Below, piece after piece: positions 45,574 through 60,339 of a stretch of DNA of 64,000 bases (position 1 is the stretch's first letter; every line of letters starts with the position of its first letter). A program made the translations under genes and the position numbers. This stretch comes from an uncultured Candidatus Saccharibacteria bacterium (GTDB taxonomy: Bacteria > Patescibacteriota > WWE3 > UBA101185 > UBA10185), in the NCBI GenBank assembly GCA_964387275.1, contig CAYLVW010000002.1:63286-127285 (forward strand). Direction: 5' to 3'. The notes below the pieces were generated by a model. That model was not told the DNA's origin, did no database searches, and worked only from the letters and a program-made list of their open reading frames with translations.

Positions 45574-45975
45574 TGGTGGAGATGGCGAGAATCGAACTCG
45601 CGTCTTGAAAACCCAAAAACAAAAAACTACAAGTTTAGCTGTACTTAAGTGTCAGAAAATCATGGAGTACAACAACCTAAAATCTTCCTAAGACCTTCTT
45701 CTGTGAAAGGTGGAATTACATCCTAAAAATCAAAGTGGGTCAAACTCTAATTTCGCATCCGAAAATTATAAAGTTGTGGTCTTACATCTTTCGGAGGAAG
45801 TAAGGCAACTTAACCTAAGCTCTTTGAGCTGTGGTTAGGCTAAAGCACCGGCGTAAGCTGGTACTAAAGCTTCTGATTCAACATCAGCATTTATTTTTTG
45901 CAAATTTTTTGAAGCAGTTTTGCAACTTCTACTTGTTTCTGAGATTGGGAAATCCAATCAAAGCCGATCATCCCC
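45574..45975 (-). ncRNA. ssrA: tmRNA (SsrA)
   Basis: The 5' end GGGGATGATCGGCTTTGATTGGATTTCCC resembles E. coli GGGGCUGAUUCUGGAUUCGACGGGAUUUGCG. The 3' end GCGAGTTCGATTCTCGCCATCTCCACCA has a tRNA-like T-arm and CCA. The internal tag ORF GCT GAT GTT GAA TCA GAA GCT TTA GTA CCA GCT TAC GCC GGT GCT TTA GCC TAA translates to ADVESEALVPAYAGALA*. Confidence 0.85.
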
Positions 45976-46057
45976 TTGTTAAAGTGCCCATAGAACATAT
46001 TTAGTTTACAATGGTGTACCCTAAATAAACCTACAGTAAAATTTATAATACAGAAAA

Positions 46058-46510
46058 CTAATGCCAGATACTTTTTAACTCAACCTTTAGATCCTTGTCC
46101 ATCTGTTTCACCTTTTCTATATCTTTCTTCTCATATTTCTTAAGACCTCTTACTATACCAAGTTCCAATTTTATCAGATTGTGTGACAATATCAACGCAA
46201 GGGGCACCGCAGACTTCCCTTTCTGAGATAGTTCTTTTATTAAGATACTTACTTCTTTGGAAGTCAGTAGAAGTGAGCGTGTTTTTCTACTGTCTGCTTC
46301 ATTATGGGGTTGTGATTGATTTGAGTACCTACCTACGTACATATTCAATATAACAGGCTTCCCTGAAAGTACTTGTACAAAACTGCCATCAAAGTTAACT
46401 TTTCCTTCTCTTATTGCCTTAACCTCATAACCTTTAAGAACGAGTCCTGCTGTTAACGTCTCGAGTATTTCGTAATCGTGGAAAGCTTTTCTATTCTTAG
46501 CTAGTAACAT
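46058..46510 (-). CDS. smpB: SsrA-binding protein SmpB
   Basis: NRKAFHDYEILETLTAGLVLKGYEVKAIREG compares with NRKARHDYEILETYEAGIVL in the SmpB consensus. Confidence 0.9.
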   Translation of the reverse strand: MLLAKNRKAFHDYEILETLTAGLVLKGYEVKAIREGKVNFDGSFVQVLSGKPVILNMYVGRYSNQSQPHNEADSRKTRSLLLTSKEVSILIKELSQKGKSAVPLALILSHNLIKLELGIVRGLKKYEKKDIEKVKQMDKDLKVELKSIWH

Positions 46511-51922: not shown

Positions 51923-52243
51923 TTAGAACTCTGTATTTAAATTAGTAATATTTGGGTCAGTAACACCAAGAGCTTGGGTTATGGTTAATCTTGCCCCAAT
52001 AACCACAAAAGAAATTAAAATAGCAAAAGCACCATAAACAACAGCGTTCCAAGCCTGCTGTACCCCTTTTGGATCCCCTTTACTCATAATATATAAGTAA
52101 CAGGCCCATGCCAAGTTAACAATCGCAGCGCCAAACCCTACTCCCGCTAGGATATTTAGACCTACAATCAAAAAGTCCCTAATAGAATCAGGGGCTGATG
52201 CTGGATAAAATTGAGTTGCTAAGTTGTCTATTACGTTGAACAT
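51923..52243 (-). CDS. VirB2/TrbC-like pilin paralog 3
   Basis: TM1 is LIVGLNILAGVGFGAAIVNLAWACYLYIM, the loop is SKGDPKGVQQAWN, and TM2 is AVVYGAFAILISFVVIGA. Confidence 0.45.
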   Translation of the reverse strand: MFNVIDNLATQFYPASAPDSIRDFLIVGLNILAGVGFGAAIVNLAWACYLYIMSKGDPKGVQQAWNAVVYGAFAILISFVVIGARLTITQALGVTDPNITNLNTEF

Positions 52244-52270
52244 TGTTTCGTGTTTCTACCGTCCCGATTT

Positions 52271-52295
52271 CTGGGCGGGCCGAAGGCCCGCCCAG
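52271..52295 (-). terminator. GC-rich hairpin (GGCCGAAGGCC core) between pilin paralogs 2 and 3, a putative intra-operon attenuator
   Basis: CTGGGCGGGCC-GAA-GGCCCGCCCAG lies between the 52310 stop and the 52243 start. Confidence 0.45.
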
Positions 52296-52309
52296 CTCCA
52301 AGAACAAAA

Positions 52310-52645
52310 TTAGAATATTGCGGATCCTCCCGGTCCTGTGGCATTTCCACCGATCAAACCTGGGATAATAGTCCTCAATACTGTGATAAAGAAAAGACCC
52401 ACGCCTCCTACTACGGCATAAGTAAGCCATTGTCTGGCTGCATCAGTAGCTTTAACTTCTCCCTTGGATGTAACATACTGTACAAAACCCAAAGCTAACA
52501 TAACGAAAACTAAAGCCCATCCTATACCGATAATGAGGTTAATTACCATAGCGAATACCTGAGGCAAACTGGATACGTTTGGTAATGGGTTGCTCAACGT
52601 GGTACTAACCGCGGTTTGAGCATAAACTCTTTGTAATAATTCCAT
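52310..52645 (-). CDS. VirB2/TrbC-like pilin paralog 2
   Basis: Long leader, TM1 FAMVINLIIGIGWALVFVMLALGFVQYV, loop TSKGEVKATDAARQW, TM2 LTYAVVGGVGLFFITVL. Confidence 0.45.
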   Translation of the reverse strand: MELLQRVYAQTAVSTTLSNPLPNVSSLPQVFAMVINLIIGIGWALVFVMLALGFVQYVTSKGEVKATDAARQWLTYAVVGGVGLFFITVLRTIIPGLIGGNATGPGGSAIF

Positions 52646-57969: not shown

Positions 57970-59631
57970 ATGAAAAAGTCGCTGCTAACAAAAATTCAAA
58001 AAATAACCCCTAACTACTCACAAAGAACCGGTTCTTTTTCGAACACAATAATCATAAACGCTGAAACCGAAGAACTATTGGAAAGAAAAGGTAATGTTTA
58101 TTGTGTTTTTTCAATTAGCAGCTCACAAGAAATTGATGCAAGCGTAACTACAAAAATAATACAAGATTATATTCACGATACTTATTACCAGTCTGACTCT
58201 GTATCCCCAACTCAAACTATAGAAAAGTGTATTAATGAAATTAAAGATAAAGTGATCAAAATAACCAACGATACGTCTACTGAACTTAATATGGTGTGTG
58301 GTGTGCTTTGGGGTAATGTCTTCTATTATGTTTTGTATGGATCTGGGTGTGGTTATTTAGTAAGAGATGGTGTCGATAAAACGATAAACCCAAACTCAGA
58401 AGGAAGGTTCTCATCTGCCTCAGGGATAATTAAGGATCAGGATGTTATCGTACTAGCCACCGAAAAATTTGCTGAAGAATACACACCAAGTAAACTCCTA
58501 AGCACCTCGATATCAATTCAAAACCTTACCCCACTATCCGCATGCCTAATAATCAAGGCTGTTGTTGATAACTCATTCTCTGAACAGGAAAAACTAAACA
58601 TTAAATCCCCGTCATCTCAAAAACAAACACAAAAAATTCAAAAACAAAAAAAACCACTTTCTCTGCTAGGTTTTCTTGCTAAAAGTAAAGCACTGATACT
58701 AATTCTGCCAATAGTAGCTACATTAAGTGCGATTGGAATTGGCATATATTTTTTCTTAAAACAACCATCTACTAACAAAGTGGCTCAAAACATCAACACC
58801 CCAAATAAAAGCACTGAGGTAATGGGGGTTGCTACAACACCTACCCCAACGCCAGTTCCAACGCCAACAGAAAAAACTACAAAAAATGATTTCCAAGTCT
58901 ATTATGACCTCACCTTAGTAACCTCAGCGGTTACTCCAAGTGAAATTGCTATATTAGGAGACAATATATTTATAGCAGATAAAACAGCTGGCAAAATCTA
59001 CACCAGCACCTTAGAAACCCCAAAATTCACAGAAATACCCACAATATTTCCGAGTATACGTAATTTAAGAACACGCAAAGACTCTCTAACCTTTCTGGAT
59101 AACACTGGGTATAAAATAGTAAACCCAACTGATGGTAGTGTTACTTTGTCTTATAATGCCGATTTTGAGGTCTCTTCAAACTACCTAGACTTTATTTATG
59201 CTAATACCGGTTCTAGCTTATATAGATACTCAATCTCAGGAGACACACTAACTCAGACTCTATGGGGAGATAGCAACTTGTTCAATAATATGAGAAGTAT
59301 GTCTATTGCAATAAACATTTATACAATTGACCAAAATGGTGAAGTACACAGATTCAGTAAAGGTGCACTCGAAGATTTTGAATTAAATGGCTTAGCCAAA
59401 AAACTTGTAAACCCAACCAAAATACTTACTCACATAGATTATGATCATTTATATATCCTAGACACGTCAGGCAATAAAATTTCGATTTTTGATAAAGATG
59501 GGGTATTTATAGCCCACGTGATGCATTCAAATCAAAACGCCTGGACAAATCTCAAAGACATAGCCATAGACCCAGACGAAACTAAAATGGCTGTTCTAGA
59601 CGGCACAAAGGTCTACCTATTAAATTTGTGA
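57970..59631 (+). CDS. Hypothetical bitopic protein: cytoplasmic N-domain, TM, Thr/Pro linker, and a large extracytoplasmic (beta-rich) domain
   Basis: TM is ILILPIVATLSAIGIGIYFFL, with a TTPTPTPVPTPTE linker. Confidence 0.4.
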   Translation: MKKSLLTKIQKITPNYSQRTGSFSNTIIINAETEELLERKGNVYCVFSISSSQEIDASVTTKIIQDYIHDTYYQSDSVSPTQTIEKCINEIKDKVIKITNDTSTELNMVCGVLWGNVFYYVLYGSGCGYLVRDGVDKTINPNSEGRFSSASGIIKDQDVIVLATEKFAEEYTPSKLLSTSISIQNLTPLSACLIIKAVVDNSFSEQEKLNIKSPSSQKQTQKIQKQKKPLSLLGFLAKSKALILILPIVATLSAIGIGIYFFLKQPSTNKVAQNINTPNKSTEVMGVATTPTPTPVPTPTEKTTKNDFQVYYDLTLVTSAVTPSEIAILGDNIFIADKTAGKIYTSTLETPKFTEIPTIFPSIRNLRTRKDSLTFLDNTGYKIVNPTDGSVTLSYNADFEVSSNYLDFIYANTGSSLYRYSISGDTLTQTLWGDSNLFNNMRSMSIAINIYTIDQNGEVHRFSKGALEDFELNGLAKKLVNPTKILTHIDYDHLYILDTSGNKISIFDKDGVFIAHVMHSNQNAWTNLKDIAIDPDETKMAVLDGTKVYLLNL

Positions 59632-59663: not shown

Positions 59664-59692
59664 TTTACAACCTATAGTATTTGTAGTATAAT
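59664..59692 (+). promoter_or_regulatory. Consensus-like promoter TTTACA-17-TATAAT driving the GC-rich islet gene
   Basis: ctTTTACAacctatagtatttgtagTATAATagtgg. Confidence 0.5.
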
Positions 59693-59732
59693 AGTGGAAG
59701 GTCAAATTAACCTCAAAAGAAAGGTCACTCTG

Positions 59733-60101
59733 ATGAAGTTTTTCCTCCTAATCGTACTGTCCACATTTATTATGTGGGTTGGGGCCAGTGTTGCCATGGG
59801 CAACACCTCCCCACAAAGCGTCGTGGAGGCTCCCGAGCAGACGCTCGGAGAAGCCGTAAACATGAGTGTGATTGGGTGTGGAGACACCCAAATATATAAC
59901 AACCTCCCCATGAGGGAAGTTGTCGTCAGGAATACCAATGGGGCTGTCAATGCCTACGCCTATCAGCAAAAGGCTGATGGCAGCCGTCGGGAGTATTTTC
60001 TGGATAAGTTTACCGATATCGGGAAATACCAGGTTTCCTGGGATGCTCCAGGTGTCGGAACGTTAACGTTCGGTTTAATGATCGAGGAGATCTGCCGATA
60101 A
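59733..60101 (+). CDS. Small secreted protein (signal peptide, two Cys) encoded in a roughly 50%-GC islet
   Basis: MKFFLLIVLSTFIMWVGASVAMG signal peptide, with codon usage atypical for the window (GCC, CTC, CGG). The start is trimmed to ATG at 59733, with AAAGAAAGG upstream. Confidence 0.5.
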   Translation: MKFFLLIVLSTFIMWVGASVAMGNTSPQSVVEAPEQTLGEAVNMSVIGCGDTQIYNNLPMREVVVRNTNGAVNAYAYQQKADGSRREYFLDKFTDIGKYQVSWDAPGVGTLTFGLMIEEICR

Positions 60102-60339
60102 CCAACACCCCTGTTTTTAGATCTGTGCTTTGCACAAATTCTACTGACAGGGGCTTTCTATAACTATGGGGTATTTCATACTTTCTGGATGTGATAAAAT
60201 TACGTATCTAAAGTGTTGGTACGAATAAGTTAAATATTGACTTTAAGCCCTGTCATCAAGTAAAATGACACTCGCTTCTCTCGTTTTGCATTTGAAGAGA
60301 AAAATAAAGGTGAAAGTCACTTTTGGTTTTTAAAAACTA

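What the first reader, a model, noticed from the sequence alone, without database searches (positions are those of the whole stretch)
59664..60170. About 0.5-kb islet with roughly 50% GC encoding a small secreted two-Cys protein with its own consensus promoter
Base composition jumps from about 35% to about 50% GC across the ORF 59733-60101, which is rich in GCC, CTC, CGG and GGG codons. The flanking regions are AT-rich and there is a 240-nt gene-free stretch downstream. Upstream is a near-perfect TTTACA-17-TATAAT promoter, followed by a purine-rich RBS. The product has a signal peptide followed by about 100 aa and matches no obvious family. This is consistent with a recently acquired moron, toxin or effector.
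Basis: seen in the sequence. Interest (0 to 1): 0.6.

Follow-up and report, generated by a model that had tools for sequence, protein, structure and literature searches.

The report
Old, fast-evolving GC-rich exported-protein gene
The GC-rich islet is a real, self-contained gene for a small exported protein that entered this spot in an ancestor of one group of ultra-small (CPR) bacteria long ago, not recently. It has kept its odd GC-rich codons, and in some lineages an unusually folded mRNA, while its protein sequence changed very fast.

Summary
ORF 59733-60101 (122 aa) has 50% GC against 36% for the window. The excess sits at third codon positions (GC3 0.59 vs 0.30), and codon usage is the most atypical of 53 ORFs. 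The gene has its own promoter, ribosome-binding site and terminator hairpin, a signal peptide and two cysteines, and no family match.

"Recently acquired moron/toxin/effector" is not supported. The slot between the beta-propeller gene and the Zn-ribbon/L25 operon is empty in every other related locus surveyed (22 distinct sequences). It is occupied in one monophyletic clade: the window, L010, L014/L073, L015 and probably L019.

Within that clade the promoter is conserved and the proteins are homologous but only 23-31% identical, while neighbouring proteins stay 70-89% identical. Neighbours' fourfold sites are saturated, yet the slot gene stays GC3-rich, so the GC is maintained rather than a relic.

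The GC3 excess tracks excess mRNA folding (synonymous-shuffle z = -4.3 window, -3.8 L015, -2.8 L010, about 0 to -1.5 elsewhere).

Best reading: an old, vertically inherited cassette encoding a rapidly evolving, probably disulfide-clamped all-beta envelope protein, a lipoprotein in sister lineages. Its biochemical function is unknown. Interest is modest.

The parts
59664..59692 (+). Sigma-70-type promoter TTTACA-17-TATAAT of the slot gene. Its spacer contains the conserved motif ACCTATAG.
   Evidence: Matches 11 of 12 positions. The same promoter and spacer motif lie upstream of the positional orthologues in L010, L014, L073 and L015, and in a shifted form in L019.
59716..59724 (+). Purine-rich ribosome-binding site (AAAGAAAGG), 8 nt upstream of the ATG. 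It lies in a roughly 33-nt 5' UTR; the transcription start near 59698-59700 is inferred.
   Evidence: Read from the sequence. AGGAG-type sites occupy the same place in L014, L015 and L019.
59733..60101 (+). Protein-coding ORF of 122 aa plus stop. GC is 0.50 and GC3 is 0.59.
   Evidence: dN/dS against L001 is 0.16. Substitutions by codon position are 13:8:32. The ATG and signal peptide are conserved in L001, with in-frame stops upstream.
59733..59798 (+). Sec-type signal peptide (aa 1-22, MKFFLLIVLSTFIMWVGASVAM). It has no lipobox cysteine in this lineage.
   Evidence: Judged by inspection, since no signal-peptide predictor was available. AF2 predicts a helix for residues 3-18. The L014, L015 and L019 orthologues have lipobox-like VVGC, TVAC and STAC.
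59799..59858 (+). Low-complexity, probably flexible linker (aa 23-42, rich in Pro, Glu, Gln and Ser).
   Evidence: pLDDT is below 50 for residues 9-42 in both AF2 runs. This is the most divergent part of the protein between lineages.
59859..60098 (+). All-beta domain (aa 43-122, seven predicted strands). Cys49 and the C-terminal Cys121 are conserved, so a disulfide clamp is inferred.
   Evidence: AF2 with a 7-sequence alignment gives pLDDT 80-90 for residues 61-120. Cys121 is invariant and the first Cys is conserved in win, L014 and L015; in L019 the equivalent Cys is displaced in the alignment.
60108..60160 (+). Terminator-like compound hairpin (CCCCTGT...ACAGGGG) followed by CTTTCTA.
   Evidence: Inverted repeat I5 and RNA folds. 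The hairpin is almost invariant in L010 and L002. Canonical GC-stem plus T-run terminators occupy the same place in L014, L015 and L019.
60237..60339 (+). Not part of the cassette. This is the ancestral promoter (TTGACT-18-TAAAAT, 60237-60266) and conserved 5' leader of the downstream Zn-ribbon (117 aa)/L25 operon. It accounts for most of the 'gene-free' stretch.
   Evidence: Promoter scan. The same TTGAC...AAGTAnAAT promoter is present in occupied and empty loci alike.

Best explanation
The islet is a monocistronic gene cassette: promoter, SD, ORF and terminator.

Origin. It was inserted between the membrane beta-propeller gene and the Zn-ribbon/L25 operon in the ancestor of one subclade of CPR/Patescibacteria. 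It has been inherited vertically at that spot since. The single gain is inferred from the tree.

Product. The protein is exported through Sec. In sister lineages it carries a lipobox, so it would be lipid-anchored on the outer face of the membrane. In the window lineage the lipobox cysteine is gone, so the protein is either released or held by an uncleaved signal peptide. The mature part is a flexible linker of about 20 aa followed by an all-beta domain of about 80 aa. That domain is probably clamped by a Cys49-Cys121 disulfide. The fold, the disulfide and the localisation are inferred, not shown.

Evolution. The protein evolves several-fold faster than its neighbours but stays under purifying selection over short timescales. 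This is typical of a surface or envelope protein exposed to hosts or phages. Its biochemical role is unknown.

The GC excess. It lies at synonymous sites and is not a leftover of the donor's composition, because synonymous sites in the flanking genes have turned over completely since the lineages split. A gene-specific force therefore keeps GC3 high.

My preferred cause is selection for a compact, stable mRNA from a strongly transcribed unit. The lineages with a large GC3 excess are the ones whose mRNA folds significantly better than codon-shuffled versions of itself. I put this last step at about 0.4.
For: Coding and real:
- dN/dS is 0.16 and third positions dominate the substitutions.
- The reading frame, start codon and signal peptide are conserved.

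Cassette anatomy is conserved across lineages.

Old single gain:
- The slot is empty (10-170 nt) in all other loci that carry both flanking genes, 22 distinct sequences.
- It is occupied only in win, L010-13/L001, L014/L073, L015 and L019.
- On an NJ tree of three flanking proteins the core clade has 200/200 bootstrap support. With L019 included the support is 137/200.

Homology of the slot proteins:
- Smith-Waterman z = 10 (win vs L014) and 8.3 (win vs L015) against shuffles.
- tblastn of the L014 protein against the window gives E = 2e-6.
- A profile search recovers only proteins from this slot.

Fast protein evolution: 23-31% identity, against 70-73% (propeller), 79-89% (Zn-ribbon) and 78-82% (L25).

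GC is maintained rather than residual:
- Flank fourfold sites are 26-39% identical between win and L014/L015 in the two larger flanking genes (propeller, L25), which is about chance.
- Slot fourfold GC is 0.63, 0.71, 0.46 and 0.61 in win, L010, L014 and L015. In the flanks it is 0.13-0.39.

mRNA folding:
- The full transcript has z = -5.7 against dinucleotide shuffles.
- The ORF has z = -4.3 against 200 synonymous-codon shuffles (0/200 fold as well).
- In a separate run over the window's ORFs it was the most extreme of 53 (z = -4.7; the others average -0.41 +/- 1.17).
- Other lineages: L015 -3.8, L010 -2.8, L014 -1.0, L073 -1.5, L019 +0.25.
- Pearson r with GC3 excess is -0.89 over 5 lineages.
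- The window ORF holds 10 perfect hairpins of at least 5 bp, against 2.9 expected (0/500 shuffles).

Fold: seven beta strands with pLDDT 80-90 in the core.
Against: Function:
- It is not established. There is no family, solved-structure or fold match.
- The AF2 model is only moderately confident (mean pLDDT 67).

mRNA-structure explanation is incomplete:
- L014/L073 and L019 show no significant folding excess.
- Individual hairpins are not conserved between the window and L010.
- Covariation is weak: 2 compensatory pairs against 15 broken, from only 3 sequences.
- Substitutions are depleted in stems overall (OR 0.46, p = 0.006), but not significantly at third positions (p = 0.2). That test also leans toward a structure derived from the consensus.

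Other weaknesses:
- The L019 protein is not significantly similar in sequence and its sister position has only 68% bootstrap support.
- The L014 and L015 proteins are not detectably similar to each other (z = 0.4) although both match the window protein. This fits very fast divergence but also fits allele replacement.
- The composition background is only 64 kb, and the ORFs were chosen heuristically.
- High expression is inferred from the promoter match alone.
Confidence: 0.6

Rival explanations
1. Recent horizontal acquisition. The gene is a freshly imported moron, toxin or effector, and its GC still reflects a GC-richer donor.
For: Strongly atypical GC3 and codon usage. The gene has its own promoter and terminator. 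It is absent from more distant relatives. It has no homologues outside the clade.
Against: The gene is present at the same position throughout a clade whose flanking genes are saturated at synonymous sites. The window and L001 copies differ by dS of about 0.5 and are collinear with their flanks. There is no mobile-element context, no tRNA or integrase, no convincing direct repeats, and no phage or plasmid match.
Confidence: 0.04
2. Ancient slot with repeated allele replacement. The cassette is a recombination hotspot. Divergent alleles from an unsampled, GC-richer gene pool are swapped in through the conserved flanks. This would keep GC high and make the proteins look hyper-divergent.
For: Slot GC is roughly constant (0.45-0.53) whatever the host GC (0.35-0.43). 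L014 and L015 are sisters on the flank tree, yet their slot proteins are unrelated by score (z = 0.4) while each matches the window protein. dS inside the ORF is uneven: 11/20 third positions differ at the 5' end but only 1/20 in mid-ORF.
Against: No member of the family was found anywhere else among about 15 billion proteins, 1.8 billion representatives, viral contigs, phages or plasmids. No GC-rich donor lineage is known. The promoter, which would be swapped along with the gene, is conserved in step with the flanks. The L014/L015 branch is short, so it is close to a trichotomy.
Confidence: 0.17
3. The GC-rich, hairpin-dense segment is primarily a structured non-coding or dual-function RNA gene, and the ORF is incidental or secondary.
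For: GC-rich islets in AT-rich genomes are usually RNA genes (general knowledge). The transcript folds far better than shuffles (z = -5.7) and has many perfect hairpins. It has its own promoter and terminator. Mid-ORF synonymous sites are nearly invariant between win and L010.
Against: The coding signatures are clear: dN/dS is 0.16, third-position changes dominate, and the signal peptide or lipobox and the two Cys survive down to 25% identity. There is no Rfam match even at E <= 1. The hairpins are not conserved between lineages, and L014 and L019 show no folding excess.
Confidence: 0.07
4. Slowly ameliorating relic, or a neutral regional bias such as GC-biased gene conversion, with no selection on the RNA.
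For: L014 and L019 have a smaller GC3 excess, as if partly ameliorated. The gene-specific force is unidentified.
Against: Flank fourfold sites are saturated while the window, L010 and L015 copies keep a GC3 excess of about 0.3. A relic should have decayed by then. The bias stops sharply at the ORF and terminator and does not spread to the adjacent intergenic DNA. The excess folding relative to composition-matched shuffles is not predicted by a pure compositional bias.
Confidence: 0.12

Closest known systems
Lineage-specific orphan (ORFan) genes for small exported proteins or lipoproteins in bacteria
   Same: The gene is short and taxonomically restricted and has no family assignment. It evolves fast, carries a signal peptide or lipobox, and was inserted between conserved housekeeping genes.
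   Different: From my own knowledge, not tested here, bacterial ORFans are typically AT-richer than their genome. This one is much GC-richer, the excess is synonymous, and it has persisted through saturating divergence. It also has a conserved near-consensus promoter and an over-folded mRNA.
Prophage 'morons' (autonomous promoter-ORF-terminator units)
   Same: It is a self-contained transcription unit of about 0.5 kb with a composition different from its surroundings, inserted between two older genes.
   Different: There is no prophage or phage context and no phage homologue or fold match. It is chromosomal and vertically inherited in a clade.
Small beta-rich, disulfide-containing envelope lipoproteins such as the MliC/PliC lysozyme inhibitors (a resemblance recalled from memory)
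   Same: The mature protein is about 100 aa and all-beta. Sister lineages have a lipobox. It has a conserved Cys pair and lies in an envelope-related gene neighbourhood that includes an M23 peptidase.
   Different: There is no Pfam or PDB sequence match. No PDB chain, MliC/PliC included, scored better than E = 0.09 in the Foldseek searches. Membership is not supported.
PKD / Ig-like beta-sandwich domains
   Same: The predicted fold is an all-beta sandwich-like domain. A local motif, DGSxxEYFxxFTxxGxYxV, resembles the PKD signature, and the only distant hit (P0003) is a PKD-repeat protein.
   Different: That hit is inflated by five repeats. hhalign gives a probability of 0.5%, and there is no Pfam PKD hit even at E <= 10.

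Membership tests
Recently acquired genomic islet (HGT) | Composition and codon usage atypical for the host | tested here: met
   GC 0.50 vs 0.36, GC3 0.59 vs 0.30, CAI-like z = -7.5.
Recently acquired genomic islet (HGT) | Absent at this position from closely related genomes | tested here: not met
   Present in L001/L010-13, L014/L073, L015 and L019. The clade has 100% bootstrap support and its flanks are saturated at fourfold sites.
Recently acquired genomic islet (HGT) | Mobility signatures: flanking direct repeats, tRNA, integrase or transposase | tested here: not met
   The only flanking repeat is a 22-nt, 82% match lying inside the propeller ORF, which is chance level. The nearest tRNA or tmRNA is at least 14 kb away. 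The neighbours are housekeeping genes.
Prophage moron | Located within a prophage or phage genome | tested here: not met
   No phage genes in the neighbourhood. No hits in viral contigs, phage records or the viral fold library.
Prophage moron | Own promoter and terminator flanking a single ORF | tested here: met
Sec-exported protein | N-terminal n-h-c signal peptide | tested here: inconclusive
   MK followed by about 20 hydrophobic residues and ASVAMG, judged by inspection. AF2 predicts an N-terminal helix. The feature is conserved in orthologues. No dedicated predictor was available.
Bacterial lipoprotein | Lipobox [LVI][ASTVI][GAS]C at the end of the signal peptide | tested here: not met
   The window protein has no Cys before residue 49. 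L014/L073 have VVGC; L015 (TVAC) and L019 (STAC) are close but do not fit the first lipobox position. The window lineage appears to have lost the lipobox.
PKD domain (PF00801 / PF18911) | Significant profile match to the domain | tested here: not met
   No Pfam hit at E <= 10. hhalign against the P0003 repeats gives probability 0.5%.
Toxin/bacteriocin-immunity or effector module | Adjacent cognate immunity, transport or secretion-system gene, or homology to known toxins | tested here: not met
   The unit is monocistronic between a propeller gene and the L25 operon. No PADLOC, Pfam or NCBIfam hits.
Diversity-generating retroelement target | A template/variable repeat pair and a nearby reverse transcriptase | tested here: not met
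   No repeat of at least 30 nt involving 59664-60170 anywhere in the window. No paralogue.
Structured non-coding RNA (Rfam families) | Covariance-model match, and absence of coding constraint | tested here: not met
   No Rfam hit at the gathering score or at E <= 1. The coding constraint is clear.

The most novel reading that the evidence does not exclude
A gene-specific force, most plausibly selection for a hyper-structured and long-lived (or dual-function) mRNA, has held synonymous GC about 30 points above the genome average. It has done so through complete synonymous turnover, while the encoded surface protein raced ahead. The ORF may also have been captured between two pre-existing tandem promoters of the L25 operon: an ACCTRTAG(T)ATTT element from the slot promoter also occurs just after the propeller gene in 'empty' lineages. 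This would be a clean natural example of RNA-level selection decoupling a gene's composition from its genome in an uncultivated CPR bacterium.
Probability: 0.2. Interest if true: 0.55.

Novelty: new member of a known kind. Interest (0 to 1): 0.33.

Why it matters
A sharp compositional anomaly with its own promoter is usually read as recent horizontal transfer, and here that reading is wrong. The gene is old at this locus, and its GC-rich synonymous sites are actively maintained. This is a caution for composition-based HGT calls in AT-rich, reduced genomes.

Such proteins are candidates for the cell-surface interface on which these episymbionts depend.

If the link between GC3 excess and mRNA folding holds up, the locus would be a compact system for studying selection on mRNA structure.

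Tried and rejected
- PKD relationship via P0003: rejected. The hit is repeat-inflated and hhalign gives probability 0.5%.
- Phage or plasmid origin: no hits.
- DGR target or paralogue: no template/variable-type repeats and no paralogue in the window.
- Remnant direct repeats: the only candidate is 59487-59508 / 60155-60176 (22 nt, 82%). Its first copy lies inside the propeller ORF at normal GC and it is absent in L014 and L015, so I treat it as chance.
- ncRNA: no Rfam hit. Covariation from 3 sequences is uninformative.
- Antisense ORFs of 82 and 73 aa: expected by-products of high GC, since substitutions follow the + frame.
- The longer GTG start at 59628 (157 aa): rejected. The conserved promoter lies downstream of it, and L001 has in-frame stops there.
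- P0028: a chimeric metagenome contig, not a new context.
- Organism identification: the genome-contig scan with L25 gave only 36%-identical Patescibacteria MAGs, and the cluster look-up returned no names.
- Structure in the leader of the L25 operon: not significant.
- Two literature searches found nothing specific.

Full report
**1. Observation**

The described feature is real.

Composition:
- ORF 59733-60101 (+, 122 aa) has GC 0.501 in a window of GC 0.363. Among 369-nt windows the sd is 0.032, and this is the highest peak of the 64 kb.
- The anomaly is synonymous. GC1, GC2 and GC3 are 0.52, 0.39 and 0.59, against means of 0.45, 0.34 and 0.30 over 53 long ORFs. The next-highest GC3 is 0.39.
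- A CAI-like index based on window usage is 0.51 against 0.74 +/- 0.03 (z = -7.5).

Expression signals:
- TTTACA-17-TATAAT lies at 59664-59692 (11/12).
- A purine-rich SD lies at 59716-59724.
- A compound hairpin at 60108-60153 is followed by CTTTCT.
- A single 11/12 promoter match is not above chance in this AT-rich DNA: 4 occur in the window against about 3 in shuffles. Its conservation across lineages (section 3) is what makes it credible.

**2. It is a protein-coding gene**

- Against the collinear relative L001 (88.8% nt identity over 5 kb), dN/dS is 0.16. Differences fall 13:8:32 on codon positions 1:2:3.
- The ATG, the hydrophobic N-terminus and both cysteines are conserved. L001 has stop codons upstream in frame, which excludes the longer GTG start.
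- The antisense ORFs are what a GC-rich stretch produces by chance.

**3. Not recent: a positional orthologue in a whole clade**

Protein searches found very little:
- A search of about 15 billion proteins found only two near-identical homologues.
- An exhaustive HMMER scan of 1.8 billion representatives added only a spurious PKD-repeat protein.

I therefore surveyed the locus through its downstream neighbour, a 117-aa Zn-ribbon protein co-transcribed with L25. That gave about 60 related loci.

Slot occupancy:
- Wherever both flanking genes are on the contig, the propeller gene and the Zn-ribbon gene are 10-170 nt apart. This holds in 22 distinct sequences.
- The exception is a single group: window, L001/L010-13, L014/L073, L015 and L019. 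There the gap is 700-920 nt and holds one small gene.
- On an NJ tree of the three flanking proteins the core group has 200/200 bootstrap support. With L019 as sister the support is 137/200.
- One ancient gain is therefore the parsimonious reading.

Shared features of the slot genes:
- They share a near-consensus promoter (TTTACA in win, L010, L014/L073 and L015; TTGACA in L019), a conserved ACCTATAG motif, an SD and a terminator.
- The proteins share the same architecture: a signal peptide or lipobox, a linker, a Cys early in the mature chain, beta strands, and a Cys 2-6 residues from the C-terminus.
- The window protein is significantly similar to those of L014 (Smith-Waterman z = 10; tblastn E = 2e-6) and L015 (z = 8.3).
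- L019 is similar in position, promoter motif and architecture only.
- A profile of the family finds nothing outside this slot. P0028 is a chimeric contig.

**4. Fast protein, persistent GC**

- Slot proteins are 23-31% identical between lineages. The flanking proteins are 70-73% (propeller), 79-89% (Zn-ribbon) and 78-82% (L25) identical.
- Fourfold sites of the two larger flanking genes (propeller, L25) are 26-39% identical between the window and L014/L015, which is saturation.
- Even so, fourfold GC of the slot gene is 0.63 (window), 0.71 (L010), 0.46 (L014) and 0.61 (L015). In the flanks it is 0.13-0.39.
- After complete synonymous turnover the donor's composition cannot survive passively. 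Something specific to this gene keeps GC3 high, or alleles are being replaced from outside.

**5. A clue to the force: the mRNA is over-folded**

- The transcript 59700-60165 folds at -179.6 kcal/mol against -140.3 +/- 6.9 for dinucleotide shuffles (z = -5.7).
- Against shuffles that keep the protein and the codon counts, the ORF has z = -4.3 (0/200).
- In a separate run over the window's ORFs it was the most extreme of 53 (z = -4.7; the others average -0.41 +/- 1.17).
- It contains 10 perfect hairpins of at least 5 bp, where 2.9 are expected (0/500).
- Across lineages the folding excess follows the GC3 excess:

| Lineage | GC3 excess | Folding z |
|---|---|---|
| window | +0.32 | -4.3 |
| L010 | +0.35 | -2.8 |
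| L015 | +0.27 | -3.8 |
| L014 | +0.09 | -1.0 |
| L019 | +0.05 | +0.25 |

- Pearson r is -0.89 over these five non-independent points.

Caveats:
- Specific hairpins are not conserved between the window and L010.
- Covariation from three sequences is uninformative.
- Depletion of substitutions in stems is significant overall (p = 0.006) but not at third positions (p = 0.2).
- I therefore treat 'selection for global mRNA compactness or stability in a strongly transcribed unit' as the leading idea, at about 0.4, and not as shown.

**6. The protein**

- AF2 with the 7-sequence family alignment predicts a disordered N-terminal 42 residues (signal peptide plus linker). It then predicts a seven-stranded all-beta domain with pLDDT 80-90 for residues 61-120.
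- No fold or sequence relative was found.
- The L014/L073 orthologues have a lipobox (VVGC) and those of L015 and L019 have lipobox-like TVAC and STAC, while the window lineage has lost that cysteine.
- The neighbourhood is envelope and housekeeping genes: a bPH-domain membrane protein, DUF5657, a membrane beta-propeller, L25, an M23 peptidase, SpoIID and PAP2.
- My committed reading is a tethered or released, disulfide-clamped surface or envelope module under rapid diversification. Its molecular partner is unknown.

**7. The downstream 'gene-free' 238 nt**

This stretch holds three features:
- the terminator of the slot gene;
- a spacer;
- the ancestral TTGACT-18-TAAAAT promoter with the conserved leader of the Zn-ribbon/L25 operon.

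The promoter and leader are present in occupied and empty loci alike.

**8. Verdict**

It is refuted on 'recent', and unsupported on 'moron, toxin or effector'.
- The kind of thing, a lineage-specific orphan gene for an exported protein, is known.
- The unusual aspect is the long-term maintenance of GC-rich synonymous sites, coupled in three lineages to an over-structured mRNA.
- Host: CPR/Patescibacteria. DUF5671 and DUF5657 are present, and the best L25 match is 36% to Paceibacterota and Buchananbacteria MAGs. The lineage is not resolved further.

Noticed in passing
window 60237-60339 (also L010, L014, L015, L019, L073 upstream of the Zn-ribbon gene): The 5' leader of the Zn-ribbon/L25 operon (GACACTCGCTTCKCTCGTTTGCATTTG...CACTTTTGGTTTT) is conserved behind a conserved TTGACT-18-TAAAAT promoter. 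A unit of about 46 nt of the leader is tandemly duplicated in L014 and L073. It could be a ribosomal-protein autoregulatory leader. There is no Rfam hit and no significant predicted structure.
   Followed up: partly
window 59670-59684; L037-L050 about 17-18 nt after the propeller stop; L032 at the propeller stop: The motif ACCTRTAG(T)ATTT from the spacer of the slot-gene promoter also occurs in the short intergenic region of an 'empty' clade (GACCTGTAGTATTTG, conserved while its flanks vary). In L032 it is part of a TTGACT-17-TAGAAT promoter-like site. The upstream promoter or element may therefore predate the inserted ORF, giving tandem promoters. The statistical support is borderline.
   Followed up: partly
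window 59733-60101: The exact 122-aa product is not on record in the 15-billion-protein collection. Its two neighbours from the same 212-kb NCBI contig are on record. The gene was probably not called, or was called from the GTG at 59628 as a 157-aa product.
   Followed up: partly
L074 (GCA_020047435.1 contig, 2133 nt), gene 1592-2005: P0028 fuses an unrelated N-terminus, followed by a Gln/Pro-rich stretch, to the L014-type slot protein at APAPVAPEE. The upstream genes are L32 and FabH-like. This looks like a chimeric metagenome assembly at a low-complexity stretch.
   Followed up: no
window 59853-59972: Between the window and L010 only 4 of 40 third codon positions differ in mid-ORF, against 11 of 20 in the signal-peptide region. 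This suggests nucleotide-level constraint or recent gene conversion in the part that holds the two hairpins shared by both lineages.
   Followed up: partly
window 51923-52645 (-): Two small genes (106 and 111 aa) lie under the second-highest GC peak of the window (about 0.47 at 52101). One has a weak T4SS_pilin (PF18895) match. This is a second case of a small, probably exported protein with raised GC, but its GC3 is only 0.31-0.36.
   Followed up: no
window 45574-46510 (-): A tmRNA gene (tag peptide ADVESEALVPAYAGALA) lies next to smpB. This is an ordinary housekeeping pair with no island integrated next to it.
   Followed up: no
window 57970-59631 (+): The upstream neighbour is a 553-aa membrane protein. 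It has a Pro/Thr-rich linker and a C-terminal region with a weak match to the 6-bladed beta-propeller family DUF5128. It is conserved next to the Zn-ribbon/L25 operon in most of the surveyed loci, and in some 'empty' loci the operon's -35 box overlaps its last codons.
   Followed up: partly
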